This document shows, piece after piece, positions 979 to 64,000 of a stretch of DNA of 64,000 bases (within the stretch, counting starts at the first letter, position 1; every line of letters begins with the position of its first letter). Below the pieces are notes generated by a model, which saw only the letters and a list, made by a program, of their open reading frames with translations, did not search any database and was not told where the DNA came from. Origin of the DNA: an uncultured Gemmatimonadaceae bacterium (lineage in GTDB: Bacteria; Gemmatimonadota; Gemmatimonadetes; Gemmatimonadales; Gemmatimonadaceae); assembly GCA_963829055.1 (NCBI GenBank), contig CAWHHI010000020.1:544001-608000 (forward strand). The letters are read 5' to 3'. The position numbers and the translations under genes were made by a program.

Positions 979-2646
979 TCACCAGGCGATCGCGTATGCC
1001 TCGCGACGCGGATCCGCGCCCGCCACTCGGCCGCCCGATGGCGTAAGCATGATCACCTGCGCGCCACCGAACTCCTCACTCGGCTCCTGCAGCGTCACCT
1101 GATGCCCACGCCGGGTAAGCGCCTCGCGGACGTCTGCCGCGATACCAGGCTCCACGCCGATGCGCTCGCGGCCATACCAGCGGAATCGCGCCGCCTCCAC
1201 CGCCTGCTGCGGCGTTAGGCCGAACTGCAGGATGTTCGTGAGCACCTGCACGAGCGTCTGCGGCTGCCCGTCCCCGCCCGGCGTTCCCACGACCATCATC
1301 AGCGAGCCATCGGGGCGGAGCACCATCGCCGGACACAGCGTATGGAACGGACGCTTCCCGGGGGCGATCACGTTCGCGTGCGTCGTATCGAGCACATACA
1401 GCGACCCGCGATTGTGGAGCGTGACGCCAGTGCCCGGCACCATCCGGCCGCTCCCGAAGGCGGCGAACAGGCTCTGGATCATCGACACCGCATTTCCGTC
1501 CTTGTCGATGACGCCGAGGTACACGGTGTCGCCCGTGCCATCGCGGTTCGCGTTCGCGTCGCCGTCATTGGCCTTGAGCTTGTCGCGCAGGCGACGCGCG
1601 AGATCCGCCGCGTAGTCCTTGGAGATCAGCTTCGCGACGGGCACCTCCGAGAACGCCGGATCGGCGACGTACTTGTCGCGATCCGCGTACGCGAGCTTCG
1701 CTCCTTCGACCAGCGAGTGGATGTAGTCCGCCGAGTTGCGGCCCATCGGCTTGAGATCCGATAGCTCGGCGATGTTGAGCTGTTCCAGCAGCGTCACGCC
1801 CTGCGTGTTAGGCGGAAACGCGATCACCGGGTTGCCGAGGTACGTGCTCGAGATCGGCTTCTCCCACGTGGAGTGGTGGCGCGCAAGATCGCTCGCGGTG
1901 AGCAGGCCGCCCTCCTTCTCCATGAACTGCGCGATCTGCTTGGCGAGCGCTCCCTTGTAGACGACGTCCGGCCCGCCGGCGGCGATCGCGCGCAGCGTAC
2001 GCGCGAGATCGGGCTGTTTGAGCAGCGACCCCACGGGCGGCGCTTCACCGTTAGGCAGGAAGATGCGCGCGAGCTCCGGATCCGCGGCGACCTTCTTCTT
2101 CGACTCGGTGATGTCGGCGTTGAGCCGCGGCGACACGGGGAATCCACGCTCGGCGTAGCGGATCGCCGGCTGCAGCGCCTGCGACAGCGTGATGGTGCCG
2201 TACTTCTGGAGCGCGTCGGCCCAGCCGCGGACAGCGCCGGGCACCGAAACGGAGAGGATGCCCGTGCCCGGCACGGCTTTCATCCCCTTGGCACTGAAGA
2301 ACGCAGGCGTCGCCTTGCTTCCGGCTCGGCCGCTGCCATTCAGTGCCACGATCTCGCCCGTCTTCGCGAGACGAATGAGCATGAAGTTGTCGCCACCGAC
2401 GCCGTTCATGTGCGGCCTGACGACGGTGAGCAGCGCCGCCATCGTGATCGCCGCATCGACGGCGTTGCCGCCGCGCTTGATCACTTCCATGCCGGCGGCG
2501 GACGCGAGCACGTGGTCCGACGTCACGGCGGCGTCGATTCCGCCGACATCCGGACGCATCGACGGCAGTTGGGCGATTGCCGGTGCCGCCAGGAACGGAA
2601 GCAGCGCGAGCGCGCGAGTGGTCGAAAGGAATCGAGGCATATGCAT
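979..2646 (-). CDS. ggt: Gamma-glutamyltransferase
   Basis: Signal peptide, GGNAVDAAI, NGVGGDNF, autocleavage Thr (GDTVY), PGKRPFHTL, GTPGGDGQPQ, GADPRRE. Confidence 0.95.
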   Translation of the reverse strand: MHMPRFLSTTRALALLPFLAAPAIAQLPSMRPDVGGIDAAVTSDHVLASAAGMEVIKRGGNAVDAAITMAALLTVVRPHMNGVGGDNFMLIRLAKTGEIVALNGSGRAGSKATPAFFSAKGMKAVPGTGILSVSVPGAVRGWADALQKYGTITLSQALQPAIRYAERGFPVSPRLNADITESKKKVAADPELARIFLPNGEAPPVGSLLKQPDLARTLRAIAAGGPDVVYKGALAKQIAQFMEKEGGLLTASDLARHHSTWEKPISSTYLGNPVIAFPPNTQGVTLLEQLNIAELSDLKPMGRNSADYIHSLVEGAKLAYADRDKYVADPAFSEVPVAKLISKDYAADLARRLRDKLKANDGDANANRDGTGDTVYLGVIDKDGNAVSMIQSLFAAFGSGRMVPGTGVTLHNRGSLYVLDTTHANVIAPGKRPFHTLCPAMVLRPDGSLMMVVGTPGGDGQPQTLVQVLTNILQFGLTPQQAVEAARFRWYGRERIGVEPGIAADVREALTRRGHQVTLQEPSEEFGGAQVIMLTPSGGRVAGADPRREAYAIAW

Positions 2647-2651
2647 CGTCG

Positions 2652-3393
2652 TTAGGTGTCGGATCGACCGGCCGGCATCGCGGACTGGTCGATCATCCAG
2701 ATGGTGCGTTCACGTGAAGAAACCATCGCGGCCGGATAGCGGCGGGCCGTGTCCTCCCCGGACAGGATCTCTCCGATGACCGGACGCTTGTCCGCACCCG
2801 CGATGAGGAACATCGCGCATCGCGCGCCATTCAGAAATGGGAGTGTCGTCGTGACGCGCGGTACGGCAGGCTGAACCGCCGTTGGCGCCGCGACGGCGAC
2901 CGCAAAGCGAGTCTGCTCCTCGAGCGCGGGCGATCCAGGGAACAGCGACGCGGTATGGCCGTCTGGGCCAACGCCCAGAAGGACGAGATCGATGCCGTCG
3001 CGGACGAGTCGGCGTCAGCGTCGCGTCGTAGGCAGCGGCCGCGGCATCCACCGTCGCCGTATCGGTTGGCACCGCGTGCACGCGCTCGTGCGGAATGGGC
3101 ACTCGCGAGAGCAACGCCTCGCGTGCCATCCTGTAGTTGCTGCGCTGATCGTCCGCGGGCACGAAGCGCTCGTCGCCGAAAACGATGTTGGTCCGCGACC
3201 AGTCGATCGCGTCGCGATGTCGCGTCGCCAACAGCTCGTACGTTCGCCGCGGCGTGTTGCCGCCCGCGAGCGCCAACGTGAACCGTCCGCGCGCCGCAAC
3301 GCTCTCACGAGCGATCGCCACGATCTCGTCGGCCGCGGCATCGCTCAACGCCTCGAGGTCGCGGAATGGTCGAACGTCGCGGGCGCTCGTCAT
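2652..3393 (-). CDS. pgl: 6-phosphogluconolactonase (apparent frameshifts near 3010 and 2760)
   Basis: LALAGGNTP and FGDERFVP in the first frame; DLVLLGVGPDGHTASLFP in another frame; C-terminus ...RTIWMIDQSAMPAGRSDT with TAA at 2652-2654; downstream of zwf. Confidence 0.9.
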
Positions 3394-3415
3394 CTCGTGC
3401 CAGAGCAACTCGTGG

Positions 3416-4975
<1,560 letters not shown>

Positions 4976-5026
4976 TGTAACGCGTCCCCGCTCGTTTGCA
5001 GTTCAGACCTAACGATTGGCAACCAC

Positions 5027-5158
5027 TGTCATCCCGAGGAGCGCCAGCGCTTGTCATCCCGAGCGACAGCGAGGGATCTTCTGTCCGGTCCTCGTGGATC
5101 GTCCGGCTACGATGCCATCACAGAAGGTCCCTCGTCGCTAGCGCTCCTCGGGATGACA
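5027..5158. repeat. REP/REPIN-like element family A with duplicated left end
   Basis: TGTCATCCCGAGGAGCGCCAGCGCT-TGTCATCCCGAGCGACAGCGAGGGATCTTCTG...CAGAAGGTCCCTCGTCGCTAGCGCTCCTCGGGATGACA, between gnd and zwf. Confidence 0.9.
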
Positions 5159-5162
5159 CAGA

Positions 5163-6068
5163 TCAGCTCTTCTTCACCGCGTGCCCGCCAAACTGATTGC
5201 GGAGCGCCGACAGCAGGCGGTCCGTGTACGATTCGGAGTCACGCGAGCGCAGACGCTGTAGCAGCGCCAGCGTGATGACCGGCGCCGGCACGTCGAGGTC
5301 GATCGCCTCCGCCACCGTCCATCGCCCCTCGCCCGAGTCCGACACGTACGGTGCGATGGACGACAGGTCCTGGTCGTCGTGCAGGGCGCGCGCCGTGAGA
5401 TCCAGCAGCCACGATCGTACCACGCTGCCCGTGCGCCACAGCTCGGCGATCTGCGCCAGGTCGAGATCGAATTCCTTCTTGTGCTTGAGGATCGAGAAGC
5501 CTTCGGCATACGCCTGCATCATGCCGTACTCGATCCCGTTGTGGACCATCTTCGTGAAGTGGCCCGACCCGACCGGACCGACGTGTCCCCAGCCCTGATC
5601 CTTTGCCGGCGCGAGCGTCTCGAAGATCGGGCGGATGCGATCGACTGCCTCGTTAGGTCCGCCAACCATGAGGCTGTAGCCCTCCGTCAGCCCCCAGATC
5701 CCGCCGCTCGTACCGGCGTCCACGAAATGCAATCCGCGCTCGGCGACCATGGCCGAGCGGCGGATCGATTCCTTGTAGTTGCTGTTGCCGCCGTCGATGA
5801 TCGTGTCGCCCGAGGCGAGCAGGTCGGCGAGCGCGCGCACCGTGTTTTCGGTGGGGTCGCCCGCGGGAACCATGATCCAGACCGCGCGCGGAGCCGCGAG
5901 CTGCTTGACGAGATCCTCGAGCGTGTTCGCGCCGCGAGCCCCGTTGGTCGTCGCGGCTTTGACGGCGTCCGCGGTCCGATCGAATGCGACGACCTCATGC
6001 CCACCGCGAACGAGCCGCGTCGTCATGTTCGCGCCCATCTTTCCCAGTCCCACCATCCCTAGCTGCAT
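5163..6068 (-). CDS. gnd: 6-phosphogluconate dehydrogenase, decarboxylating (short YqeC type)
   Basis: GMVGLGKMG, IIDGGNS, DAGTSGG, KMVHNGIEYG, DSGEGRWT, LRNQFGGH. Confidence 0.97.
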   Translation of the reverse strand: MQLGMVGLGKMGANMTTRLVRGGHEVVAFDRTADAVKAATTNGARGANTLEDLVKQLAAPRAVWIMVPAGDPTENTVRALADLLASGDTIIDGGNSNYKESIRRSAMVAERGLHFVDAGTSGGIWGLTEGYSLMVGGPNEAVDRIRPIFETLAPAKDQGWGHVGPVGSGHFTKMVHNGIEYGMMQAYAEGFSILKHKKEFDLDLAQIAELWRTGSVVRSWLLDLTARALHDDQDLSSIAPYVSDSGEGRWTVAEAIDLDVPAPVITLALLQRLRSRDSESYTDRLLSALRNQFGGHAVKKS

Positions 6069-6131
6069 GTCGCCCTCGGTTGACGGTATTTAAAACATGA
6101 CATGCTCGGCGCATGGATGGATGACTCGGAT

Positions 6132-6261
6132 CGCGGAAGGCGGAGGGCGGAGGGCGGAGGGCGGAGGGCGGAACGCGGGACGCGGCCGTTGGACGGGGAA
6201 CGGACGCGACCCACGGCGGTCGCGTTGTTCCGCCGTCCGCCCTCCGCTGTCCGCCTTCCGG
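6132..6261. repeat. Heptamer tandem repeat (GGCGGAG)n with an inverted degenerate copy
   Basis: GCGGAAGGCGGAGGGCGGAGGGCGGAGGGCGGAGGGCGGAA then TTCCGCCGTCCGCCCTCCGCTGTCCGCCTTCCG; similar tract near 50885. Confidence 0.8.
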
Positions 6262-6280
6262 CAGTCGGCGGCCGGTTCTA

Positions 6281-6302
6281 GAATTAGATACTTAGCTAAA
6301 TA
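6281..6302 (+). promoter_or_regulatory. Candidate autorepressor operator TTAG-N8-CTAA in an AT-rich promoter
   Basis: GAATTAGATACTTAGCTAAATA, an imperfect inverted repeat 12 nt upstream of the ArsR/SdpR start codon. Confidence 0.6.
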
Positions 6303-6314
6303 TTGAATTCTTGA

Positions 6315-6590
6315 ATGAACGACGTCTTCCGCGCACTCGCCGACCCAACCCGACGCGAAATCCTCAAGCTCCTGCGAGCAGGACCGCGCACGTCCGGCGA
6401 AATCGCCGACCGGTTCCCTTCCACATGGGCTACCGTCTCGCGACACCTTGGCATCCTCAAGGATGCCAAGCTCGTGTTGGCTGAGCGCGATGGGCAGAGC
6501 ATACGGTACGAGTTGAACACCACGGTATTTCAGGAGGTCGTCGAGCACATGCTCGATTGGACCAAGCCCCCACGGAGGCCCAATGCGTAG
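6315..6590 (+). CDS. ArsR-family (SdpR-like) transcriptional repressor
   Basis: FRALADPTRREILKLL, VSRHLGILKDAKLV, YELNTTVFQE; overlaps the downstream SdpI-like gene. Confidence 0.9.
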   Translation: MNDVFRALADPTRREILKLLRAGPRTSGEIADRFPSTWATVSRHLGILKDAKLVLAERDGQSIRYELNTTVFQEVVEHMLDWTKPPRRPNA

Positions 6591-7236
6591 GTGGTTGCCG
6601 GCAGTGCTGATCGCCGGCGCAGTGCTATTCTCGCTCGCAGTTTATTCGAGACTTCCCGATCAGGTGCCCGTCCACTGGGGATCTTCAGGCGAAGCCAACC
6701 GTTACGGCACTCGCATCGAGGGCGCGTTCCTCATGCCGGCGCTCATGATCGCATTGCTGGTGATCATGCGCTGGTATCCATCGCGCGATCCACGCTCGGC
6801 AAACATCGCCAAGTTCCGTGACGCGTACGACACGGTAGTCACCGGAACGATCGCCCTGTTGACCGGAATCCACGTGCTCGCCCTGGGGGATGCACTCGGG
6901 TGGCAGGTCGACATGGCCAGAGCGGTCATGATCAGCATCGGCGTGTTGTTCATTCTGGTGGGCAACCTGCTCCCGGTCGTTCGATCGAACTTCATCCTCG
7001 GCATCCGGACGCCGTGGACGTTGTCGAGTGAGACGGTGTGGACGCGCTCGCACCGCGTGGGCGGCTACGCCATGGTCGGCGCCGGCGTGATCACGATTGT
7101 CGGCGCGCTGGTGGCCCGGCCGTGGGGACTCGCGGTTGCATTGGTGAGCTTACTGATCTCCGCCGCGATTCCGATCATCTACTCATACGTATTGTGGACG
7201 AGGGAGCACGGCCGTCCGTCGGACGAGCGACCCTAG
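6583..7236 (+). CDS. SdpI-family membrane protein (DUF1648 + SdpI domains)
   Basis: LPDQVPVHW, NFILGIRTPWTLSSETVWTRSHR; about six hydrophobic helices. Confidence 0.9.
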   Translation: MRRWLPAVLIAGAVLFSLAVYSRLPDQVPVHWGSSGEANRYGTRIEGAFLMPALMIALLVIMRWYPSRDPRSANIAKFRDAYDTVVTGTIALLTGIHVLALGDALGWQVDMARAVMISIGVLFILVGNLLPVVRSNFILGIRTPWTLSSETVWTRSHRVGGYAMVGAGVITIVGALVARPWGLAVALVSLLISAAIPIIYSYVLWTREHGRPSDERP

Positions 7237-7324
7237 CGGGGGGCTGAGCCGGCGGTCAAGCACGCGCCGTGCAATGCGTTGGTGGGAGTGGGTGCGATTC
7301 CGGCACTCGGAGTCGGCTCGCGGG

Positions 7325-7357
7325 CCGATTCCCAATTCCCGATTCCCTATTCCCGAC
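7325..7357. repeat. Heptamer tandem repeat (GATTCCC-like)
   Basis: CCGATTCCCAATTCCCGATTCCCTATTCCCGA; reverse-complement relatives near 26009 and 32755. Confidence 0.65.
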
Positions 7358-7359
7358 GG

Positions 7360-8169: not shown

Positions 8170-8181
8170 GCGGTTGTTCCG

Positions 8182-8934: not shown

Positions 8935-9005
8935 CGTCGCACTGGCGGGAAACGCCGTGCCTGCCGAAGCTCATGAGCCTGGCGCCAATCCCAAAAAACA
9001 CACTG

Positions 9006-11013: not shown

Positions 11014-11031
11014 TGGCCGGTCGTCCGGCAA

Positions 11032-12346: not shown

Positions 12347-12383
12347 GAAAAGACTCCCACGCGTTAGGTGACGCGTAGGAGTC
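12347..12383 (-). terminator. Intrinsic terminator forming the riboswitch expression platform
   Basis: Minus strand GACTCCTACGCGT-CACCTA-ACGCGTGGGAGTC-TTTTCG: 13-bp stem (one G-U) plus U-tract; the 5' arm overlaps the aptamer 3' end. Confidence 0.85.
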
Positions 12384-12424
12384 ATCAGCCGAAATCGGCG
12401 GTTCACGGCGAACTCCATCGCCGA
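12375..12424 (-). ncRNA. Fluoride riboswitch (crcB motif)
   Basis: Minus strand GGCGATGGAGTTCGCCGTGAACCGCCGATTTCGGCTGATGACTCCTAC fits the consensus GGCGATGGnGTTCGCC...AAC...GCT(A/G)ATGACnCCTAC; upstream of crcB. Confidence 0.96.
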
Positions 12425-12511
12425 CCACGCTCCGTGGTGCGGCAATCCTACCGAGTCACGGCCCTCCCTGTCAACGCGACCGTGGTCGCGGTTGGGCCAG
12501 AGCGGGCGTGC

Positions 12512-13852: not shown

Positions 13853-16090
13853 ATGCCATCAACCAGCTCAACGCCGCGAAAAGCCGCGATCCAGTCGATC
13901 GCCGGCCGAGCCGCCACCAAGCCAGCGCACCCTAACGCGTCCGAGAACGGCGGCCCGCCGCCACGCCCGACTTCCGACTACTTCGGCATCAACACATTCG
14001 GCTGGCGCCAGATGCGCTCGAAGCTGCCACGCGAGGTCTACGCGAAGCTTCTCGCCTCGGTCCGACACGGAAAGAAGCTCGATGGCGAGATCGCGCCGAC
14101 GGTCGCGCAGGTCATCAAGGAATGGGCGATTTCGCGCGGGGTCACGCACTTCACGCACTGGTTCCAGCCCATGACGGGGCTGACGGCCGAGAAGCACGAC
14201 GCCTTCCTCTCGTTCGATGATCAGCGTCAGCCGGTCGAGACGTTCTCCGGCGCACAGCTCATCCAGAGCGAGCCGGACGCGTCCAGCTTCCCGTCGGGCG
14301 GATTGCGCGCGACGTGGGAAGCGCGCGGCTACACGGCGTGGAACCCGGCGAGCCCGGTGTTCATCGTCGAGTCCGGCGGCGCACGCACGTTATGCATCCC
14401 GTCGGTCTTCATCGGCTACAACGGCGAAGCGCTCGACGAGATGACGCCGCTCCTCCGCTCGAGCGACGTCCTCTCCGAGAAGGCGATGGGGCTGCTCGAG
14501 TTGTTAGGCGACACCGGCATCATCCGCGTCTACACCACGCTCGGACCGGAGCAGGAATACTTCCTCATCGATCGCACCCACTTCGCGCTCCGCCCCGACC
14601 TCGTCATGGCAGGCCGCACGCTGGTCGGTGCGCCGCCGCCGCGCGGCCAGCAGCTCGAAGACCACTACTTCGGCGGCATTCCCGAGCGCATCCAGGCGTG
14701 CATCTCCGAAGTCGAGACTGAGCTGTACAAGCTCGGCGTCCCGATCGTCACGCGGCATAACGAGGTCGCGCCCTGTCAGTTCGAGATGGCGCCGAACTTC
14801 GAGGACACGGACATCGCCGTCGACCACAACCAGCTCGTGATGGCGACGCTGCGCAAGGTCGCGTTGCGCCACGGACTGCAGGCCGTGCTGCACGAGAAGC
14901 CGTTCGCCGGGATCAACGGCTCGGGCAAGCACTGCAACTGGTCCATGGCCATCTCGGCCGACGGTCCGCTCGATGGCGTGAACCTGCTCAAGCCGGGCAG
15001 GACGCCGCATCAGAACATCCGCTTCCTCATCTTCCTCGCGGCCGTTCTGAAGGGCGTGCACAAGCACGCGGGACTCCTGCGCGCCGGCATCGGCACGTCG
15101 GGGAACGAGCACCGGCTCGGCGCGAACGAGGCACCGCCCGCCATCATCTCGGTGTTCATGGGCGCCATGCTCACGCGTCTCATCGAGAACATCATCGCCG
15201 GCAAGGAAGCGGGCAAAGGCGCTGAGCAGCAGCTCATCAAGCTCGGCGTCGCGAAGCTGCCGGAGATCGAGAAAGACAACACGGATCGCAACCGCACGTC
15301 GCCGTTCGCGTTCACCGGCAACAAGTTCGAATTCCGCGCCGTCGGCTCGTCGCAGTCCATCGCGTTCCCGGTCACGCTGCTCCATGCTGCGGTCGCCGAA
15401 GCGATCGGCGAGCTCACGGATCAGCTCCGCGAGACGCTCAAGCGCACGAAGAACGTGAACGACGCGGTGCTCAAGGTCGTACGCGAGTCGTTCAAGGAGA
15501 CGAGCGCGGTGCGCTTCGAAGGGAACAACTACTCGCAGGAGTGGGTGGACGACGCTGCCAAGCGTGGCCTGCTCAATCTGCGTCGCACGCCGGAAGCGCT
15601 GGCACAGCTCACGACGAAGTCGTCGCGCGCCGTGTTCACGAAGCTCGGCATCCTCGCGAAGGCCGAGATCGACTCGCGCTACCACGTGCGGATGGAGCGC
15701 TACATCAAGGACATGCTCATCGAGCTGCACACGTTAGGCCAGATCATCGATACGATGATCCTGCCGGCGTGCTACTCGTATCATGGACTGCTCGCCGAGG
15801 CGGCGTCGAATGCGACGGCGGCCGGGATCAAGTCGATTCCACAGATCGCGGCGGCGAACGAAGCCGGCGCGCTCATCGAGCAGCTGCAGACCCGTCGCGC
15901 GGCACTGGCGAAAGTGATCGAGAACGCGGAGCACAAGCACGACGACGTCGACGGCTGTGGCCGGCTGCTGACGTCGGACGGCGCCGACGCGATGGCGGCG
16001 GTGCGCGAGACGTGCGACGCACTCGAGCTCATCGTCGGTGACGAGTACTGGCCGCTGCCGAAGTACCGGGAGATGCTCTTCCCGGTGTAG
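13853..16090 (+). CDS. glnA: Glutamine synthetase type III
   Basis: THWFQPMTGLTAEKHDAF, EPDASSFPSGGLRAT, HEKPFAGINGSGKH, DRNRTSPFAFTGNKFEFRA, WPLPKYREMLF; 745 aa. Confidence 0.96.
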   Translation: MPSTSSTPRKAAIQSIAGRAATKPAHPNASENGGPPPRPTSDYFGINTFGWRQMRSKLPREVYAKLLASVRHGKKLDGEIAPTVAQVIKEWAISRGVTHFTHWFQPMTGLTAEKHDAFLSFDDQRQPVETFSGAQLIQSEPDASSFPSGGLRATWEARGYTAWNPASPVFIVESGGARTLCIPSVFIGYNGEALDEMTPLLRSSDVLSEKAMGLLELLGDTGIIRVYTTLGPEQEYFLIDRTHFALRPDLVMAGRTLVGAPPPRGQQLEDHYFGGIPERIQACISEVETELYKLGVPIVTRHNEVAPCQFEMAPNFEDTDIAVDHNQLVMATLRKVALRHGLQAVLHEKPFAGINGSGKHCNWSMAISADGPLDGVNLLKPGRTPHQNIRFLIFLAAVLKGVHKHAGLLRAGIGTSGNEHRLGANEAPPAIISVFMGAMLTRLIENIIAGKEAGKGAEQQLIKLGVAKLPEIEKDNTDRNRTSPFAFTGNKFEFRAVGSSQSIAFPVTLLHAAVAEAIGELTDQLRETLKRTKNVNDAVLKVVRESFKETSAVRFEGNNYSQEWVDDAAKRGLLNLRRTPEALAQLTTKSSRAVFTKLGILAKAEIDSRYHVRMERYIKDMLIELHTLGQIIDTMILPACYSYHGLLAEAASNATAAGIKSIPQIAAANEAGALIEQLQTRRAALAKVIENAEHKHDDVDGCGRLLTSDGADAMAAVRETCDALELIVGDEYWPLPKYREMLFPV

Positions 16091-23055: not shown

Positions 23056-24221
23056 GTCACGCGCTTCGAGCACGACCCATCGAGCTCGTTGCGCGGACGC
23101 CAGACGAGTCGGTCGACTTCGAGTCGCTCGACTTCGAACTTTCCGACGCGCTGCTGGCGCACGAGCCGCCGGAAGCGCGTGGACTCTCGCGGGACCAAGT
23201 GCGCCTGCTCGTGACCGATCCGACCAATGATAGCGTTAGGCACGCCGTGGCCCGCGACCTGCCGACCTACCTCGACGCCGGCGATCTGCTCGTCGCCAAC
23301 TCCAGCGCGACGATCAATGCGGCACTCGATGCGTGGCGCCCAGCCACAGGTGGCGCATCTGACGAGTTGATCGCGCTGCATCTGTCGTCGCCGGTGCCGG
23401 GTGCGGCGACTGATGATCGCTGGGTCGTCGAGCTACGCCGGTTGACGCCCGACGGTACTCGGCCGCTGCTCGACGCGCGTGCTGGCGAGCGGATCGGACT
23501 CCGCGGCGGCGCATTCGCGACGCTGATCGCTCCGTTCAGGCGTGGTGCCGCGGGCGGCCCGCCTAACGACCAAACCCGCCTCTGGGAAGCCGAGCTCTCT
23601 TACCCGGGCGGTGCACTGGCGTACGCCTGGGAGTTCGGGTCGCCCATCCGCTACGGCTATGTGCACGACCGCTGGCCACTCGCCACGTACCAGACGGTAT
23701 TCGCCGATGAACCGGGAAGCGCCGAGATGCCTTCTGCCGGCCGACCGTTCACGCCGGAGCTGGTCGAACGGATCCGATCGCGCGGCGTGGCGATCGCATT
23801 GCTGACGCTTCACACAGGCGTGGCGAGCCTCGAGTCAGGCGAGTCGCCGTATCCCGAGCGCTACCGCGTTCCGCGCGAGACCGCGATCGCGGTGAATCGC
23901 GCCCGTGCCGCTGGCGGCCGCGTCGTCGCCATCGGGACGACGGTCGTGCGCGCGCTCGAGACGGTCGCGGACATCGACGGGACCGTGAGCGCCGGTGAGG
24001 GGTGGACGGATCTCGTGATCACGCCGGAGCGTGGCGTACGAGCGGTGGACGCCCTGCTCACCGGGTTCCACGAGCCGCGTGCATCACACCTCGCGATGCT
24101 GGAAGCCATCGCGGGGCGACGGCATCTCGCCGCCGCGTACGGCGCCGCGATCCGAGAGCGGTATCTCTGGCACGAGTTCGGCGATGTCCACCTGATCATG
24201 CGCCGATCGGGAGCGGGGTGA
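23052..24221 (+). CDS. Divergent QueA-like protein (SAM:tRNA ribosyltransferase-isomerase fold)
   Basis: GDLLVAN, YQTVFA, TLHTG, VAIGTTVVRALE, LLTGFHEP, YLWHEFGD. Canonical PLPPYI and AAPTAGLHF are replaced by PIRYGYV and AEMPSAGRPF. Confidence 0.88.
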   Translation: MSHALRARPIELVARTPDESVDFESLDFELSDALLAHEPPEARGLSRDQVRLLVTDPTNDSVRHAVARDLPTYLDAGDLLVANSSATINAALDAWRPATGGASDELIALHLSSPVPGAATDDRWVVELRRLTPDGTRPLLDARAGERIGLRGGAFATLIAPFRRGAAGGPPNDQTRLWEAELSYPGGALAYAWEFGSPIRYGYVHDRWPLATYQTVFADEPGSAEMPSAGRPFTPELVERIRSRGVAIALLTLHTGVASLESGESPYPERYRVPRETAIAVNRARAAGGRVVAIGTTVVRALETVADIDGTVSAGEGWTDLVITPERGVRAVDALLTGFHEPRASHLAMLEAIAGRRHLAAAYGAAIRERYLWHEFGDVHLIMRRSGAG

Positions 24222-43107: not shown

Positions 43108-45138
43108 CTACTTCTCGAGCCTGAATGCAACAATGCTGTCGCTGAGCCCAAAAACCTCCCCGTCCCCGCCCGCCGCGATCACCACGTACTGCCGACCGTC
43201 CCGCGGACCCCGGAACGTCATCGGCGTCGCCTTGCCGCCAGCCGGCAGCTCCCCCTTCCACAGCTCGCGACCCGTCTCGACGTCGAACGCGCGAAGCGCG
43301 TGGTCCAGCGTCGCCGCGATGAACACCACGCCGCCCGCCGTGCTGATCGCACCGCCGAGGTTGATCGATCCGAGCGCCGCTGCCTGCGCCGCCGACGTCC
43401 CGGGCGGTAGCATCCCGCCTAACGTGCCGAGCGGGACGTCCCATTTCCGGGTGCCGGTGTTGAGGTCGATGGCGACGAGCGAGCCGAACGGCGGCGGTGA
43501 GCATGGCGCGCCACCTGGGCCGAAGATGAACTGGCGACGCATGACGTACGGCGTGCCCTTCATGTCCGTGTACTGTGGCCCTGGCCCGCGCACCTCGGAC
43601 GCGTTCGTCGTCGTCCGGCGGTCGAACGACTCGCGCGGGATGAGCTTTACCTCGATCGCGATGCGATTGACCGGAACGATCACGATCTGCCGCTGTGGAT
43701 CGAACGTCACGCCGCCCCAGTGCGCGCCGCCGATGCTCGACGGATAGACGAGCGTTCCCCGCTCACTCGGTGGCGTGAACGGGCCTTCGTTCCGGAGTCC
43801 GGCAATCCGCGCTCGGCACGCGGCGCGGTCGGCGTCGCTGCCGCCGAACGCATCGTCAGGCGTTAGGCGTTGCGGGCTGAGCGCCGGCAGCACCGTGTTG
43901 AACGGCTGCGTCGGGCTCGCGCGCTCGCCGGCCACGTCGCTCGTCGGCACCGGACGCTCCTCGACCGGAAACACCGGCACGCCCGTCTCGCGGTTCAGCA
44001 CGAACAGCTGTCCCGTCTTCGTCGCCTGCAGCACGACGGGGATGTCTCGCCCGTCCTTGCGGAGGGTCACGAGCGCCGGCGGTGACGCGACGTCGTAGTC
44101 CCACAGATCGTGGTGCACGACCTGGAAGTGCCACACGCACGCGTCCCGTGGACGCTCGCAGCGCGACGATGGAGTTTGCATAACGATTGTCGCCGAGACG
44201 CTCGCCGCCGAAGTAGTCGGGACTCGCGCTGCCGGTCGGCACGAGCACGATGTCGCGCGCCGGATCGGCGGCAATGACGCTCCACGCGTTAGCGGCGCCC
44301 GTCTCGTGCGCGCGCGGGCCAATCCACGTCCGCCATGCGGCGTCGGTGGAGTCCTGCGGAATCGGATCCCACGTCCAGCGCAGTGCGCCTGTCCGCGCGT
44401 CGTAGGCGCGCACTTCGCCGCTCGCGGCGTTGGTACGGCTGTTGTCCGCGACGGCGGATCCGAGAACGACGATGTCGTTGATGATCGCTGGCGGCGATGT
44501 GATCTCGTACTCCGCGGTCTCGTACGGCTTGTTGCGGAGCGAAGCGCGGACGTTGACGGTGCCGGCGGCGCCGAACGACGCACACGGCGTTCCCGCGCGG
44601 GCGTCGAGCGCGATGAGTCGGCCGTCGATGGTCGCGACGAACACGCGACGCACGCACGGTCGCGATGCCTGCGCACCCGTTAGGCGGCCGTCGATCCAGT
44701 ACGAGACGCCCCGGCTCGTGAAATCACCGAACCCGACATTGCGGTCGACTTCGGGATCGAACTTCCACAGCTCGCGTCCCGTTTCCGGGTCGAGCGCAAT
44801 CACGCGACCGAGCGGTGTGCTGATGTACATCCGGCCGTCGACGACGAGCGGCGTGACCTCGAGCGAGCGCTGGCGTCGCCGGCCGGCGAACTCGGGCGCC
44901 GTCTCGCCCGTGTGATACGTCCACGCCGGCTGCGAGCCGTCCTACGTTCTCGCGCGTGATCTGCGTCGAGCGGAGACCATCGACTCCCGAGCGCATCGCG
45001 TCCGTACGCGCGCCATTCCCCATCGGATGGTGATCGCGGCGCGGTTTGCGCCATCGCGGCGCCCGCGACTGCGGCGGCCATGACGACCGAGCACGTGACT
45101 CGCATGAGCGAGACCGCAAAGCCGGATCTTTCAGTCAT
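43108..45138 (-). CDS. PQQ-dependent glucose/quinate-type dehydrogenase (several frameshifts)
   Basis: EWRAYGRD, WHFQVVHHDLWDYDV, GGAHWGG, PCSPPPFG, LPAGGKATPMT, QYVVIAAGG across three frames. Confidence 0.9.
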
Positions 45139-54348: not shown

Positions 54349-54380
54349 CCGACTATCCGCCTGATCCAGCGCCGCGACCC

Positions 54381-56824: not shown

Positions 56825-57189
56825 GGCAGATACTCGAGAACTGGGGTAACGGCAGTCGCCGCTTGGGAACACCCGGGCGACAATGCGGTCGGCTCTACTC
56901 TGCCGCCAGTGGGCATGGGACGTACGGGGACGCTCGCACTTTTATCCGTATCACGTGCCAAACACGTTTCCGCCACAGCGTAGCCAGCTGATGCATGGCC
57001 GGGCAGCGTTAGCTGAGTGTCAGCTATCCAGAAAGTCTGTGGCGCTGGCGCATCACTGGTGCGGACTTTCCGCATCAATGTGCCCTAACCCGCGTTAAAC
57101 CACGAGGCTGGCACTTCGTTGCAAGTTGTTACCGGCTAACGCGATAACGGAAAAAACGTGGCGCCTAACGAGGTGGTCTTATTCGGTTC

Positions 57190-57217
57190 TGGACATTTGC
57201 ATGATCACCATTACAAT
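57190..57217 (+). promoter_or_regulatory. Candidate sigma70 promoter of the polysaccharide locus
   Basis: TGGACA-16 nt-TACAAT in an AT-rich island, followed by overlapping palindromes at 57225-57247. Confidence 0.45.
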
Positions 57218-57426
57218 GAGTTGGGTTGGTTAACCAACGTTAACGTTTGTCGGTGGATCGAGGACTGAGCGCGCCGCCACGACGCCGGAGTCGGCGGATT
57301 TGACGTGGTCGACGCTTGGCGCTTCGAAATTCACAGCTCGCTGCTGAGCGGTGACGCCAATGTTGGTCGTTGATGTTCGCCATGGCGGACTGCGGTGGGG
57401 GGGGCGTTGCTGTCTTCGACTTCTCT

Positions 57427-59309
57427 ATGACCGAGAGCCGGCACGAGCACGTTTCTCGACGTCGGCCGTGGGTAAGCGTCGCCACGCACGCCATCCTGGT
57501 GGTGCTGGCGTATCTGACCGCGTTCGCGCTCCGGTTCGACTTCGAATTCACTTCGGCCCGGGCGTGGCAGTTCGTCGTCACGCTGCCCGTTCTGCTCCCG
57601 GTGCGACTCCTGGTATTCTGGCAGTGCGGAATTTTCCGACTGTATTGGCGCCATATCGGATTCCGCGACCTCTTCGGGCTGCAGAGCGCGGTGACGCTCA
57701 GCTCACTCCTGTTCGTTTTCGCGCTGTACTTCGTTGGTCTGCTCGATGGCATGCCGCGGTCGGTGCTCATCATCGACTGGTTCTTGACCATCTTCTTCTG
57801 CGGCGGCGTGATGTTCGCGACGCGCTACATGAGGGAGATGCGTCCGCGCTTCGAGCCCGCGACGGGACGCCGCACACTCCTGGTTGGGGCGGGAGCCGGC
57901 GCGGAGCAGTTGCTGCGGCAGGCACAACACAGTCGCGAACACGACCTGTTGATCGTCGGTATTGTCGACGACGATCCGTCGACGCACGCGCAGTTGCTTC
58001 ACGGCGTCCCGGTCCTCGGCGCCACACGCGACATGGCGCGACTCGTGGCGCGGTTACCGCTCGAGCTGGTGGTGATCACCGTGCAGCACGCGACGAAGGA
58101 TCAGATGCGCGATCTCGTCGATCGCTGCGCTGCCACGGGCGTCGAGTACAAGATCCTGCCGTCGCTCACCGAGATGCTTACGGGCCCGACTGCCGGGGGA
58201 CGACTTCGCGACGTGCGCATCGAGGATTTACTGGGGCGCCAACCGGTATCGCTGGACCTTGGGATCCGTCGCGCGCGAAGTAACCGGGCGGACCATCCTC
58301 GTCACGGGCGCGGCCGGATCCATCGGCTCCGAGCTCGCCAGACAGCTCGCCGGCTTCCGGCCGTCTCGGCTGATCCTGTTCGAGCGCGCAGAGACGCCGT
58401 TGTACTTCGTAAACCTCGAGATCACGCGGGCGCACCCTGAGATCGAGGTCGTTCCCGCCATGGGCGATGTCACGGACCACAAACGCGTCGACCAGATCTT
58501 CGCGCGGTTCCGACCCGACTACGTGTTTCACGCGGCCGCGTACAAGCACGTGCCGATGCTGGAAACGAACGTCCGTGAGGCCGTCCGAAACAACGTCGTC
58601 GGTACTCGCCACGTGGTCGCGACAGCGCCCTTCGCTACGGCGTCCGCAAGTTCGTCCTGATCTCGACCGACAAGGCGGTCAATCCGTCGAGCGTCATGGG
58701 GGCCACCAAGCGCATCGCCGAGCGAATTCTTCTCGGGTCGGCAATGCAGCCGACAGACGTCCACCGAGTTCCGCGTCGTGCGCTTCGGGAACGTGCTCGG
58801 CTCCGACGGCAGCGTCATTCCGCTCTTTCAACGACAGATCGCCGCCGGCCAGCCGCTGACGGTGACGCACCCGGAAGTGCGGCGGTACTTCATGACGATT
58901 CCGGAAGCGGTACAGCTGGTGCTGCAGGCAACGGTACTGCCTGACGCGGCCGGCCGGATCTGCATGCTCGAGATGGGCGAGCCGGTTCGCATCCTGTACC
59001 TCGCCGAGCAGATGATCCGTCTGTCAGGGCTCACGCCGTACAAGGATGTGCCGATCGTGTTCACCGGGCTGCGTCCTGGTGAAAAGCTCGATGAGGAGCT
59101 GACGTCGGAGATCGAAGCGACGATGCCGACGGTCGTCGAGAAGATACGGCTCGTGAGAACGGACGACGTCGATCGCCGATACGCTCGCCTACGGGCTCGA
59201 GCGGATCAGCACTCTGCTCGCGGAGGGCACCGACCACGAGGTACGCGAAGCGCTTCGAGCACTCGTGCCCGAGTATTGGGAAGTTCGCCCCGCGAGCACC
59301 GCTCGCTGA
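57427..59309 (+). CDS. Membrane-anchored NDP-sugar 4,6-dehydratase (CapD/WbpM/PglF type), multiple frameshifts
   Basis: N-terminal TMs, [75 protein letters not shown]. Confidence 0.92.
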
Positions 59310-59474
59310 TGTCGAGGTGCCAACTCTACGGCACGGGACGGGGCGTGGCCGATCGCGCCGGCAGCCCGCACGTCCAGATGCTTCGACGTATGGTCCCGCT
59401 AGCGAGCGCCGGTCGATGCGGTCACCGCGACGATCAACGTCGCCCGGGCGTCGTGATCGAGGCGGAAATCGCGA

Positions 59475-60113
59475 ATGCGGAACGCAGCGCGTGAAGCGCA
59501 CGCTCGACCTGGCGGGGAGCGTGATCGGTCTTGTCGTGTTCGCCATCCCGATGGCGGTCGTCGCCGCGCTCATTCGCCTAACGCTTGGGTCGCCGGTGAT
59601 CTACCGTCAACCGCGGCCGGGGCTGCACGGCCGCACGTTCGATATCTACAAGTTCCGAACGATGCGTGACACGACGGACGCGGCGGGCAACCCGCTGCCC
59701 AATCGACTGCGTATCACGGCACTCGGTCGATTTCTCCGGCGCACGAGCCTCGACGAGCTCCCTGAGCTGATCAACGTCCTACGCGGCGAGATGAGTCTCG
59801 TCGGACCACGACCACTCCGCGTCGAGTACCTCGAGCGGTACACGCCCGAACAGGCACGCCGGCACGACGTGCTGCCGGGCATCACGGGTTGGGCGCAGAT
59901 CAACGGCCGCAACACGCTGAATTGGGACGAGCGGCTCGCGCTCGACATCTGGTACGTCGACCACGCGAGCGTATGGCTGGATCTGAAAATCCTGATGCAG
60001 ACGCTTTTCAGCCTGGTCCGCGGCATGCTGACGTCAGCGCCGACGGCTTGGATGTGCCGGAATTCCTGGGAACGACACGTAGGGATCGACAGTGCACCTT
60101 TAACGGGGGTTAA
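59475..60113 (+). CDS. Polyprenyl-phosphate phosphoglycosyl transferase (PglC/Bac_transf), frameshifted at both ends
   Basis: KRTLD, YKFRTM, SLDELPELINVLRGEMSLVGPRP, PGITGWAQINGRN. Confidence 0.92.
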
Positions 60114-60117
60114 GGAG

Positions 60118-60420
60118 ATGACGACGGTCGAGCAGGAGATCCGCACGTTTCTGGCGGAGAATTTTTCGCTCGGTGGTGACATCAACCGCCTGCCGGGAAA
60201 CCGGTCGCTCACCGAACGCGGCATTCATCGACTCGGTCGGAATCGTCGAGGTGCTCACGTTCCTCGAGACGCAGTACGACATCCAGATCAACGACGACGA
60301 GACGGTTCCCGAGAACATCGACACGATCGACAACATGGTGCGGTTCGTCGCGACGAAGCGCGGCGGCGCCGAGGCCCGGTACGTGCCGCTGGCGCCTAAC
60401 GTGTCGCATGCCCGACCTGC
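60118..60420 (+). CDS. Acyl carrier protein (frameshift near 60217; end approximate)
   Basis: [18 protein letters not shown], then [21 protein letters not shown]...PENIDTID with the phosphopantetheine Ser. Confidence 0.85.
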
Positions 60421-61385
60421 TCCGCATCGACCCGGAGCAGGCGACCGCCGAGATCACCGCCGCGCATCGAGTCGGCGGTGACCCGGCGAATGCGGAAGCG
60501 CGGCGTTGTCGTCGGGCTGTCGGGTGGCGTGGACAGCAGCGTCTGCGCCGCGTTATGCGCGCGCGCGCTCGGACCCGAGCGCGTGCTCGGGCTGCTCATG
60601 CCGGAGCGCGAGTCGTCGTCCGACATCGCTCGAGCTCGGCCGCCTCGCCGCCGAGAGCTTCGGCATCCCGACGGACGTCGAGGACATCACCGCGGTGCCT
60701 CGACGCCGCCGGATGCTACGCGCGGCGCGACGACGCCATCCGCTCGCTCATTCCCGAGTACGGGCCCGAGTGGCGGTGCAAGGTATGCTGCCGAGCGTCG
60801 TCGACAGCGACCAGTACCGCATCTTCTCCGTCGTCGCGCAGGCGCCCGACGGCACGCAGCGTCGTGCGCGCGTCACACCGACGGCGTATCTCGAGCTCGT
60901 CGCGTCGACGAGCTTCAAGCAGCGCACGCGGAAGATGATGGAGTACTACCACGCCGATCGGCTGCAATTACGCGGTCGTCGGCACGCCGAACCGGCTCGA
61001 GTACGACCAGGGCTTCTTCGTGAAGAACGGCGACGGCTCGGCCGACATCAAGCCGATCGCCCATCTCTACAAGAGCCAGGTCTACCAGCTCGCGGAGTAC
61101 CTCGGCGTGCCGGATACGATCCGGATGCGTCCGCCGACGACGGACACGTACTCGCTGCCGCAGACGCAGGAGGAGTTCTACTTCTCCCTGCCGTACGACA
61201 AGATGGACCTGTGCCTCTACGCGCGGAACAACGGCATCGAGGCCGCCGACGTCGCGGCGGCGTTAGGCCTGACCGAGCAGCAGATCGAGCGCGTCTTCCG
61301 CGACATCGATTCCAAGCGACGCGCGAGCCGCTACCTGCACCTCGAGCCGCAGCTCGTCGCCGAGGTCATCGAGGTCGGAGACTGA
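60408..61385 (+). CDS. NadE-like (NH3-dependent NAD synthetase fold) protein, multiple frameshifts
   Basis: [14 protein letters not shown]-loop, [54 protein letters not shown]. Confidence 0.88.
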
Positions 61386-61459
61386 CGGCCGCGGTCTGCG
61401 TCGCGGCGCGGAATCACGAACCCTGGAACACCCCGACGGGGTGATGGCGGGAGGCGCAC

Positions 61460-63524
61460 GTGTGCGGTGCTGGCGGGAATCTACGGACGACCGGGGGAGA
61501 ATGCCTCGCGCGAGCTGCTGTGCGCGATGGCCGGCGAGCTGCGACATCGCGGCCCGGACGGGACCGGGCTCTACCTCGACCGCCAGTTCGGGATGGTCAA
61601 CACGCGACTCGCCATCATCGACCTCGCCGGCGGCGATCAGCCGCTGTCCGACGAGCGCGGCCGCTACTGGGTGATGCAGAACGGCGAGATCTTCAACTAC
61701 CCCGAGCTCCAGCGCGAGCTCGCGGCGCTCGGTCATCGCTTCGCGACGAACAGCGACACGGAAGTGCTCGCCCACGCCTACGAGGAATGGGGCGTCGACT
61801 GTCTCACGCGCCTGAATGGCGAGTTCGCGTTCGCCGTGTGGGATCGGGAGACTTGCGAGCTGTTCCTCGCCCGCGATCGATTCGGCATTCGACCGCTCTT
61901 TCTCCTCGAGAGTGGCGGCCGTCTCGCGTTCGCGTCCGAAGCCAAGGCGCTGCTCCGACATCCGGACGCGGTCCGCGCGCTCGACCCCGCGTCGCGATCG
62001 TTCAGGCCTTCACGCTCTGGGCGACCGAGCCCGACACGGTCATCGTTTCCCGGTATTCGCGAGCTTCCGCCCGGACACTGGCTGCGCGTGAGTGCCGCCG
62101 GGACGGTCGAGCGAGCGATGCTGGTGGGACCTGCGCTTCGCGTCGCCTAACGAGATGCGCGCCGGAGCCGGAGGATGTCCTCGTCGAGGAGCTGACTGCG
62201 CTGCTCGACGACGCGACACGACATCCGGCTGCGAGCCGACGTGCCGGTCGGCACGTACCTGAGCGGCGGTCTCGACTCGTCGGCGGTCACGGCGCTCGCC
62301 CAGCGACACACGCGCCACCCGGTGCACGCGTTCGCGATCGGCTTCACCGACGCCGCGTTCGACGAGACGGAGCATCAGGACCTCGTCGCGAACACGGCTC
62401 GGCACGGAAGTGACGCGCGTGATCGTCGACGGGCCGGCGATCGCCGAGCTCATGCCGCGCGTCGTGTTCCTCTCCGAGAAACCCACGCTCCGCACCGCAC
62501 CGGCGCCGCTGCTCAAGCTGTCGGAGACCGTGCGCGCGTCCGGGTACAAAGTCGTGCTCACTGGCGAAGGCGCGGACGAGATGTTCGCCGGCTACGACGT
62601 GTTCAAGCTCGACAAGGTGCGCCGGTTCTGGGCGCGGCGTCCGGACTCGCGATGCCGACCGCAGCTGCTCCGTCGACTGTACCCGTACCTCGCCCAGGAC
62701 CTCGGGCGTGCCGGGCGAGTCTCCTGCCTAAGGTCTTTCGCCGCCGGTCTCACGGAGACCGACGACCCGCTGTACAGCCATCGCACCCGGTTCGACCATG
62801 CGGCGCGCGCGCTTCGCTTTCTCGACCCCGAGCGTGCGAGACCGTGCGAACGCTGCCGGCGACCCGCGCGATGCCGTGTGCGCGCGCCTGCCCGAAGGCT
62901 TCGCGCGTTTCAGCGACGCTCGGGTCGCGCGCAGTACCTCGAGATCATCACGTTCCTCACCGGGTACCTGCTGCACTCGCAGGGCGACCGCATGTTGATG
63001 GGCAACTCGGTCGAGGGTCGATTCCCGTTCCTCGACCACCGCATTGCGGAATTCGCCGCGCGTCTCCCGGACGGCGCGAAGCTGAGCGGATTGCGCGAGA
63101 AGCATACTTCTGCGCCGTGCCGTTCGCCCGCTGCTGCCTGCCGACATCGTCGCTCGCGAGAAGCGTCCCTACCGGGCGCCGATCCTGCGCGCGTTCATGG
63201 GGCGCGGCGCGCCAGCGTACGTCAGCGAGCTGCTCGACAGTGAACGACTGCGCGAGCGCCGGCATCTTCGCGCCCAGCGCCGTGGAGCAACTCGTCCAGA
63301 AGTGCCGACGAAATGCCGACGGCTTCGTGAGCGAGAGCGATGAGATGTCGCTCGTGGGCGTGCTGTCCGTGATGCTGCTCGACGAGCAGTTCGTGCGCAA
63401 CCCGGTGCTCGCCGCTCCGGCGGAGCCGACCAAGGTCGTCATCGGCGCGACACTCGTCGCGCCCGCCTACCCGAAACTCCAAGGAGGAATGCGTGAGCCC
63501 GCGGGCACAGCGCCTATTGCATGA
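61460..63524 (+). CDS. asnB: Asparagine synthase (glutamine-hydrolysing) family amidotransferase, multiple frameshifts
   Basis: MCG Ntn start, HRGPDG, NGEIFNY, ARDRFGIRPL, YLSGGLDSS, LTGEGADEMFAGY, SVEGRFPFLD. Confidence 0.92.
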
Positions 63525-64000
63525 CGCGCTCGTGGCGTCGACGGACCGCAGCCCGGGAAAGGTCGCGGTACTCGCCGACGGCGCGGCGTACTCCTACGAG
63601 GCGCTCCTCGACGCGGCGCTCCGCTCGCCCGTGCGCTGCAGGACAACGGCGTTAGGCGCGGCGATCGGGTAGCCGTCTACCTCGAGAACTCCTGGCCGGC
63701 CGTCGTCGCGATCTACGGGACGCTGCTCTCGGGCGGCGTCCTCACGGTGCTCAATCCGCAGACGAAGGCCGAGAAGCTCGCCTACATGCTGCCGACAGCG
63801 AGGCGAGAGCGCTCGTGACCGAGCAGTCGCTCGCGCCCGTCTTCACCGCGGCGCTCGCGCAGGTGCCTAACGTGCGAGTGCGTGATCTGCAGCGGCGGCC
63901 TGCCGGACGACGGGCGTGACGTTGCAGCCGCTCGCGGCTACAGGCTGCTGGGGTTCGACGAGGCGCTCGCCAGCGCCGAGCCGCAGCCGTTGTCGCGTGG
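63493..64000 (+). CDS. AMP-binding adenylate-forming enzyme (acyl-CoA/ACP ligase), partial and frameshifted
   Basis: AAGGAGG RBS, GTG start; manual translation RLLHDAL...PGKVAV...YSYEAL, then GVRRGDRVAVYLENS...LNPQTKAEKLAYML. Confidence 0.85.

What the first reader, a model, noticed from the sequence alone, without database searches (positions are those of the whole stretch)
1213..63872. Window-wide over-represented non-palindromic motif (C)GTTAGG(C): candidate DNA-uptake or HIP1-like chromosomal signal
SEEN: a manual scan found about 72 GTTAGG/CCTAAC sites (about 34 forward, 38 reverse; roughly one per 0.9 kb). About 63 extend to CGTTAGG and about 45 to CGTTAGGC. Examples: 1213, 2049, 3788, 4531, 9539, 15732, 18060, 21151, 24917, 28520, 33264, 39017, 43861, 49011, 55070, 61261, 63865. 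At about 68% GC a zero-order model predicts about 7 CGTTAGG and 2-3 CGTTAGGC over both strands. Only about a dozen TTAG/CTAA tetramers fall outside the motif. Most copies lie inside unrelated genes in different frames, using codons rare at this GC (TTA-GGC, CTA-ACG, GTT-AGG, CCT-AAC). One copy supplies the pgl stop and one lies in the riboswitch terminator. KNOWN: Neisseria and Pasteurellaceae uptake sequences and cyanobacterial HIP1 are dispersed and imposed on codons in the same way; Chi and KOPS are strand-skewed; restriction sites tend to be depleted. INFERENCE: a DNA-level signal maintained by an unidentified sequence-specific protein (uptake receptor, nucleoid organiser or methylation-linked process). 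I know of no description of it. The text also matches the integron core GTTRRRY and the TTAGGC telomere unit, which may be coincidence.
Basis: partly seen in the sequence, partly recalled or inferred. Interest (0 to 1): 0.88.

Follow-up and report, generated by a model that had tools for sequence, protein, structure and literature searches.

The report
Hyper-abundant self word in Gemmatimonadaceae genomes
One eight-letter DNA word, CGTTAGGC, is written thousands of times into this soil bacterium's genes against its own codon habits, much like the DNA-uptake tags of Neisseria and Haemophilus, but in another phylum and with an unknown reader.

Summary
The window holds 72 GTTAGG and 47 CGTTAGGC, against 5.8 and 0.95 in shuffles. 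The genome, a Gemmatimonadaceae MAG, holds 5004 copies and it is the top 8-mer. Synonymous-codon shuffles predict about 160 copies in genes; 3324 are seen.

Features of the copies:
- They arise by substitution, not insertion.
- They are kept at orthologous places 2-3 times more often than other 6-mers.
- They are strand-symmetric and not polar.
- They avoid each other below about 300 bp.
- They pile up at gene 3' ends.
- They are missing from foreign or chimeric stretches of the same assembly.

Enrichment is patchy across 41 relatives. One genus carries a private dialect, CGTTTGGC. A cultured strain, Gemmatirosa kalamazoonensis, has the word, and its published methylome does not include it.

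The word equals the attC crossover core of this order's integrons, but the integrase does not track enrichment. Vsr, methyltransferases, pilins and competence genes do not track it either.

Best reading: a DUS/USS-like self-recognition word. The scan had already found this word in two other genomes.

The parts
1213..63872 (.). 72 dispersed copies of the core GTTAGG/CCTAAC (34 +, 38 -). 47 of them are the full word CGTTAGGC. Mean spacing is about 0.9 kb.
2651..2656 (+). Core copy (variant CGTTAGGT) whose reverse strand supplies the TAA stop of the minus-strand pgl gene.
   Evidence: the translation ends ...SDT* with ACC TAA CG.
12363..12368 (+). Core copy in the loop of the intrinsic terminator that follows the fluoride riboswitch aptamer (12369-12431, minus strand).
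14503..14508 (+). Copy inside the type III glutamine synthetase gene (TTG TTA GGC, Leu-Leu-Gly). All 6 g1 genomes compared and L006 keep it. Motif-poor relatives read CTG/CTC CTC GGC or carry Ile at the middle codon.
15732..15739 (+). Lineage-specific gain in the same gene (ACG TTA GGC, Thr-Leu-Gly). Same-genus relatives read ACG CTG GCG and the like, so an amino-acid change is tolerated.
23234..23241 (+). Copy in queA, kept in all five same-genus genomes compared.
62146..62151 (-). Copy in a split asnB gene. It reads Pro-Asn in the true frame. The apparent TAA stop comes from an upstream frameshift in the assembly.

Best explanation
CGTTAGGC (core GTTAGG) is a lineage-specific 'self' word of some Gemmatimonadaceae. 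It is recognised as double-stranded DNA by a still unidentified sequence-specific reader, and it has accumulated through biased transmission or selection of point substitutions. The most likely mechanism, by analogy, is that of DNA-uptake-enhancing sequences. A surface DNA receptor of the transformation machinery prefers fragments that carry the word. Alleles with the word therefore replace alleles without it by homologous recombination. Copies build up wherever the cost is lowest: stop codons, 3' spacers, and Leu-Gly, Pro-Asn, Leu-Thr and Val-Arg codon pairs. Shown here: the enrichment, its origin by substitution, site conservation, strand symmetry, short-range self-avoidance, absence from foreign DNA, patchy lineage distribution, and a one-letter dialect.
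For: 1. Size of the effect. The genome holds 5004 copies and the word is the top 8-mer. It is 21-fold over synonymous-codon shuffles. 46% of all TTA codons lie in the word.
2. All four stop-free frames are used, in both orientations. Density outside genes is 1.7 times that inside.
3. Copies arise by substitution, some of them changing amino acids, with no indels.
4. The core is kept at the orthologous place in 12/20, 12/20, 7/11, 5/15 and 11/20 sites in five same-genus genomes of about 76% DNA identity. All 6-mers in the same alignments are kept at 21-24%.
5. Not polar: 52.8% on the leading strand, against 83% for the KOPS-like control.
6. Self-avoidance below about 300 bp: g(r) is 0.28, 0.38, 0.54 and 0.80.
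7. Permissive-site pattern: 2.61 and 1.92 per kb around stop codons against about 0.65 inside genes; convergent spacers 1.50 and divergent 0.97.
8. Six core-free stretches of at least 12 kb, where 0.12 are expected. The three largest carry divergent second copies of single-copy genes, so they are foreign or chimeric DNA.
9. Lineage pattern. All 7 g1 genomes are rich, as are G014 and L006. Most relatives fall below the reversed control. 13 poor genomes sampled have no word of their own.
10. Dialect. G010 holds 925 CGTTTGGC against 110 for the control, dispersed and interleaved with the main word. No other genome of the 41 exceeds about twice its control.
11. Transformation parts are present in G000: ComEC, DprA, secretin, pilins and a ComEA-like hit.
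12. These features match what the 2025 preprint's abstract and introduction describe for DUS/USS.
Against: No uptake experiment exists, and I know of no report of natural transformation in this phylum (one search found none). Every competence gene tested is equally present in motif-poor relatives. No pilin follows the word, so nothing ties the word to uptake specifically. Unlike DUS/USS, there is no excess of inverted pairs: 16 '+-' and 14 '-+' pairs within 100 bp, and 75 against 59 attC-like pairs. The word is 6-8 bp long rather than 9-12 bp. Site conservation, self-avoidance and absence from foreign DNA are equally expected for an intracellular self-tag or a binding site under selection. The gene tree could not resolve whether enrichment arose once or several times.
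Confidence: 0.4

Rival explanations
1. An intracellular self-tag or coverage site. A DNA-processing machine inside the cell (a non-polar Chi-like regulator of a nuclease/helicase, a repair or recombination loader, or a nucleoid protein) needs a site every kilobase or so, and selection keeps them.
For: Sites are conserved, they avoid each other at short range, and foreign DNA lacks them. The megaplasmids of the cultured strain carry the word at densities (0.72 and 0.40 per kb) within the range of the rich genomes. The HIP1 study read conservation of that octamer as selection for a chromosome-structure role (abstract).
Against: There is no strand polarity, which is the defining trait of Chi and KOPS. 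There is no 3-120 kb periodicity in 0 of 4 contigs, unlike HIP1. Selection per site would have to be strong enough to change amino acids. No candidate protein was found.
Confidence: 0.3
2. Integron-linked. The integron integrase, or a relative of it, reads the dispersed copies as R-box-like or secondary (attG-type) sites, for instance as docking places for cassettes just behind expressed genes.
For: CGTTAGGC is exactly the R' box of true attC sites in cassette arrays of this order (L081, L083, L084). Copies are concentrated just after stop codons. G000 has an integrase at C20:208041-208958 with attC-like pairs beside it.
Against: The integrase is over its cut-off in 24 of 41 genomes, many of them motif-poor. 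It is not over the cut-off in the rich G002, G004 and G014, where it lies in three pieces. Dispersed pairs show no excess of attC hairpins, 7 against 4. The G010 dialect GTTTGGC falls outside GTTRRRY (the consensus is recalled from memory). Copies arose by substitution, not by cassette insertion.
Confidence: 0.1
3. A methylation- or repair-linked drive (HIP1/VSP-like). An orphan methyltransferase plus biased mismatch repair converts near-words into the word.
For: The enriched one-off variants are mostly C-to-T at positions 1 and 8. A conserved Eco57I/MmeI-type methylase-helicase pair exists.
Against: Vsr was found in 0 of 8 rich genomes and C5-methylase in 0 of 8. PF01555 was found in 0 of 7 g1 genomes and PF02384 in 1 of 7. 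The Eco57I-type pair is equally present, and equally distant, in the poor G008. The SMRT methylome of the cultured carrier lists only RGATCY, ATGCAC and CCAGN7TCA (whole text). The core is AT-rich in a GC-rich genome, which runs against GC-biased repair.
Confidence: 0.05

Closest known systems
DNA uptake enhancing sequences: DUS of Neisseriaceae and USS of Pasteurellaceae
   Same: A short non-palindromic word in thousands of copies at roughly one per kb, equal on both strands. It lies inside genes in the permitted frames and is enriched at gene ends. It is absent from foreign DNA, restricted to certain lineages, and has one-letter dialects (for DUS/USS).
   Different: A different phylum. The word is 6-8 bp rather than 9-12 bp. 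There is no excess of inverted pairs in terminators. No receptor has been identified and no transformation shown. Close relatives have no word at all rather than another dialect.
HIP1 (GCGATCGC) of cyanobacteria
   Same: A hyper-abundant octamer, conserved at orthologous sites, imposed on coding sequence, with its function unsettled (abstract).
   Different: HIP1 is a palindrome, is methylated, and is periodic at 10-90 kb (abstracts). This word is not a palindrome, is not in the methylome of a carrier, and is not periodic.
Integron attC/attI core site (GTTRRRY; consensus recalled)
   Same: Identical letters: the R' box of this order's attC sites is CGTTAGGC.
   Different: The dispersed copies are single sites with no hairpin partner. 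They lie inside housekeeping genes and are independent of integrase presence.
Chi and KOPS
   Same: Over-represented words that are read by DNA machines and mark the organism's own chromosome.
   Different: Those are strongly skewed to the leading strand. Here the share is 52.8%, against 83% for a KOPS-like control in the same genome.

Membership tests
DUS/USS (DNA uptake enhancing sequences) | Short word in hundreds to thousands of copies, far above chance | tested here: met
   5004 copies; 21-fold over codon shuffles.
DUS/USS (DNA uptake enhancing sequences) | Both orientations equal, with no replication polarity | tested here: met
   2547 forward and 2457 reverse; 52.8% on the leading strand.
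DUS/USS (DNA uptake enhancing sequences) | Accumulates in permissive places and is absent from recently acquired DNA | tested here: met
DUS/USS (DNA uptake enhancing sequences) | Lineage-specific dialects | tested here: met
   CGTTTGGC in G010 only: 925 against 110 for the control. Only one dialect was found.
DUS/USS (DNA uptake enhancing sequences) | Frequent inverted pairs in terminators | tested here: not met
   No excess of close inverted pairs. Single copies do occur in terminators.
DUS/USS (DNA uptake enhancing sequences) | Transformation machinery present | tested here: met
   ComEC, DprA, secretin, pilins and a ComEA-like hit in G000. They are equally present in poor relatives.
DUS/USS (DNA uptake enhancing sequences) | The word enhances DNA uptake through a specific receptor | not testable with these tools
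   No pilin tracks the word. An uptake assay is needed.
Chi / KOPS | Strong co-orientation with replication | tested here: not met
HIP1-like | Palindrome recognised by methyltransferases | tested here: not met
   The word is not a palindrome.
HIP1-like | Long-range periodic spacing | tested here: not met
   0 of 4 contigs.
Integron attC site | R''/R' inverted boxes around an imperfect hairpin, in arrays beside intI | tested here: not met
   Met only for the arrays in L081, L083 and L084. Not met for the dispersed copies.

The most novel reading that the evidence does not exclude
This would be a third, independently evolved DNA-uptake-sequence system, the first outside Proteobacteria. Its word is the integron attC crossover core. 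A receptor tuned to it would preferentially import the cell's own DNA and also integron cassette arrays, which transformation is known to feed into integrons in Vibrio (abstract). That would couple self-recognition at uptake to cassette capture.
Probability: 0.12. Interest if true: 0.9.

Novelty: new variant of a known kind. Interest (0 to 1): 0.72.

Why it matters
According to the 2025 preprint read here, uptake-type self words are known in only two proteobacterial families. A comparable signal in abundant, rarely cultured soil bacteria would mean that sequence-specific self-recognition of DNA is more widespread than thought. It would also give a handle on gene flow in soil, and a simple marker for spotting foreign or mis-binned DNA in these MAGs, as searches showed. 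Because a cultured carrier with a closed genome exists, the question can be tested directly at the bench.

Tried and rejected
1. Dialects in poor genomes. 13 genomes were sampled at 100-200 kb each, and none has a hyper-abundant word. G012's GTTAGTCG is a 16-bp tandem repeat, not a dialect.
2. Pilin as receptor. Prepilin genes occur in 41 of 41 genomes. The C3 pilin has orthologues in rich and poor genomes alike, and the C11 pilin has no close orthologue in any of the five genomes tested. This is inconclusive.
3. Integrase as reader: rejected.
4. Solo cassettes at dispersed sites: no excess.
5. Vsr, C5, N6 and N4 methylases: rejected. The D12 methylase is in the three g1 genomes tested but not in G014. 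The Eco57I-type methylase-helicase pair is also in the poor G008.
6. Number of origins: the single-gene tree is unresolved.
7. Modification from reads: all runs are held as contigs only. The four runs laid showed 40 of 729 differences, none inside the sixteen 8-mer sites, which is too few to test constraint.
8. Indel errors next to the word as a hint of modification: in asnB the frameshift lies about 25-30 nt away, so the hint is not supported.
9. The 21-kb element of KBS708 could not be fetched.
10. HIP1-like periodicity: none.
Full report
**Observation.** The window holds 72 GTTAGG/CCTAAC (34 forward, 38 reverse), 63 CGTTAGG and 47 CGTTAGGC. Dinucleotide-preserving shuffles give 5.83 and 0.95, and 0 of 100 shuffles reach the observed counts. 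Only 12 of 84 TTAG/CTAA tetramers lie outside the core. The pgl stop is ACC-TAA-CG. One copy sits in the loop of the terminator that follows a fluoride riboswitch. The window itself encodes ordinary chromosomal genes: ggt, zwf, gnd, type III glutamine synthetase, queA and MacB-type permeases.

**Genome scale.** The window lies in a 7.78 Mb assembly of 20 contigs at 66.7% GC. It holds 5004 CGTTAGGC (2547 forward, 2457 reverse) and 7103 cores, and 80% of all TTAG lie in the core. The word is the top 8-mer by z-score and by ratio. An order-2 Markov model expects 2.6 in a 200 kb sample where 127 are seen. No conservation extends beyond about 10 bp, so this is not a mobile-element repeat.

I called genes crudely: 7178 calls covering 76% of the genome. 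On these calls the word uses all four stop-free frames: NCG-TTA-GGC 1311, G-CCT-AAC-G 926, GC-CTA-ACG 609 and C-GTT-AGG-C 453. Shuffling synonymous codons within genes gives about 160 copies against 3324 observed, and 46% of all TTA codons sit in the word.

**Lineage.** The nearest homologues of the glutamine synthetase are Gemmatimonadaceae and Gemmatimonadales MAGs at 70-80% identity. Among 41 related genomes:
- All 7 of genus g1 are rich (about 2500-5100 copies), and G014 of another genus has 6360.
- Several genomes are intermediate.
- Most fall below the reversed-word control.

Named relatives behave alike: L006 is rich, most have none, and 65 loci from other phyla hold 5 copies in 1.19 Mb. 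The intermediate genomes G010 and G040 carry the word dispersed, and it is still their top 8-mer. Thirteen poor genomes sampled at 100-200 kb have no hyper-abundant word of their own.

G010 alone has a second word, CGTTTGGC: 925 copies against 110 for the control. It is dispersed and interleaved with the main word, so together they make CGTTWGGC at 0.43 per kb. A look-alike word in G012 proved to be a tandem repeat.

**Origin and maintenance.** Orthologues in poor relatives show substitutions, not indels, for example CTG CTC GGC becoming TTG TTA GGC. Some sites also change amino acids. Against five same-genus genomes at about 76% DNA identity, the core is kept in 47 of 86 comparisons, while all 6-mers in the same alignments are kept at 21-24%. 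Gains and one-step decays are visible. In the glutamine synthetase gene, rich genomes carry 3-7 cores (the lower-density g1 genomes G003 and G004 carry 1 each), all nine motif-poor copies carry none, and the intermediates G010 and G020 carry 0 and 1. A few positions are shared across genera. The gene tree does not settle whether there was one origin or several.

**Anatomy of the distribution.**
- *Polarity.* The leading-strand share is 52.8%, against 83% for a KOPS-like control.
- *Spacing.* Sites avoid each other below about 300 bp, and there is no 3-120 kb periodicity.
- *Position in genes.* Density peaks at gene ends: 2.61 and 1.92 per kb around stops against about 0.65 inside genes. It is lowest in divergent spacers.
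- *Stop codons.* The core supplies the stop of 574 of my gene calls. Some of these are frameshift artefacts of this long-read assembly.
- *Empty stretches.* Six stretches of at least 12 kb lack the core, where 0.12 are expected. The three largest lie at or near contig ends and carry second copies of single-copy genes that are only 47-59% identical to the main copies. They are therefore foreign or chimeric DNA and act as an internal negative control.
- *Independent data.* Contigs from four other studies cover the region at about 98-99% identity.

**Integron link.** In motif-poor genomes the few copies cluster in one orientation about every 550 bp. These are textbook attC sites: R'' GCCTAAC, a hairpin, then R' CGTTAGGC. 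However, the integron integrase is over its cut-off in 24 of 41 genomes, including many poor ones, and is not over it in the rich G002, G004 and G014. Dispersed copies show no excess of attC-like partners or hairpins. The G010 dialect also falls outside the recalled GTTRRRY consensus.

**Search for a reader.**
- ComEC is present in 40 of 41 genomes.
- DprA, a secretin and a ComEA-like hit are present in rich and poor genomes alike.
- Prepilins are present in 41 of 41 genomes, and no PilA-like protein tracks the word.
- Vsr and C5-methylases are in 0 of 8 rich genomes.
- PF01555 is in 0 of 7 g1 genomes and PF02384 in 1 of 7.
- A D12 methylase is missing from G014.
- An Eco57I/MmeI-type methylase-helicase pair is equally present in the poor G008.

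**Cultured carrier.** Both megaplasmids of Gemmatirosa kalamazoonensis KBS708 carry the word. Plasmid 1 has 36 copies in 50 kb, where it is the top 8-mer, and plasmid 2 has 20 in 50 kb. I sampled only 100 kb of this strain, and its chromosome was not available to me. The published SMRT methylome, which I read in full, reports m6A only at RGATCY, ATGCAC and CCAGN7TCA. The word is therefore not an m6A or m4C site in that strain.

**Comparison with known systems.** The 2025 preprint on DUS/USS (abstract and introduction read) states that such sequences are known in two families only. It describes thousands of copies, dialects, permissive placement and absence from acquired DNA, all of which are seen here. 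It also describes frequent inverted pairs in terminators, which are not seen here. HIP1 (abstract read) shares hyper-abundance and conservation but is palindromic, methylated and periodic.

My searches found no description of this word or of uptake sequences in Gemmatimonadota. The library lacks most subscription journals, so this is not proof of absence.

**Verdict.** This is a real, strong, lineage-restricted, substitution-built and conserved DNA word. The reading I favour is a DUS/USS-like self-recognition signal (0.4). An intracellular self-tag or binding site comes next (0.3). An integron-linked role (0.1) and a methylation or repair drive (0.05) are less likely. The reader protein is unknown, and the uptake step is inference.

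Noticed in passing
G000:C6:6854-55038, C11:7377-44055 and C6:591809-623330: Three long stretches at or near contig ends lack the word. They carry second, only 47-59% identical copies of single-copy genes (ftsK, aroC, DAHP synthase, pepA, trpB, folD). They are probably chimeric joins or mis-binned DNA from another organism in this MAG.
   Followed up: partly
window 2640-3440, 43108-44136, 57370-59494, 61467-63243: Several genes (pgl, a PQQ dehydrogenase, a Polysacc_synt_2 gene, asnB) are split by frameshifts. In asnB two compensating shifts lie about 90 nt apart. These look like residual long-read indel errors rather than pseudogenes.
   Followed up: partly
window 12369-12431 (-): A fluoride riboswitch (RF01734, 62.4 bits) followed by a strong intrinsic terminator.
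   Followed up: yes
L081 (G027:C95:1-20000), L083 (G025:C3), L084 (G027:C80): Large integron cassette arrays with very uniform attC sites in motif-poor Gemmatimonadales. The integrase is over its cut-off in 24 of 41 genomes of the order.
   Followed up: partly
G000-G006 (genus g1), whole genomes: These 5.7-7.8 Mb soil genomes have almost no DNA methyltransferases of the three major families (PF00145 in 0 of 7, PF01555 in 0 of 7, PF02384 in 1 of 7), while many smaller relatives have several.
   Followed up: no
L254 6140-11595 (G001:C159); G000:C8:73551-79040: A conserved, translationally coupled pair: a 1060-aa Eco57I/MmeI-type methylase-domain protein and a 758-aa SNF2 helicase, set among housekeeping genes. 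It is present in rich and poor genomes. Its function is unknown.
   Followed up: partly
L234-L235 (G012:C72): Short arrays of a 16-bp tandem repeat (unit close to GTTAGTCGTTCTCGTN) at several loci.
   Followed up: no
L012: A contig labelled Candidatus Kuenenia stuttgartiensis groups with Gemmatimonadota in the glutamine synthetase tree (73% identity to the query). The bin is probably mislabelled or contaminated.
   Followed up: no
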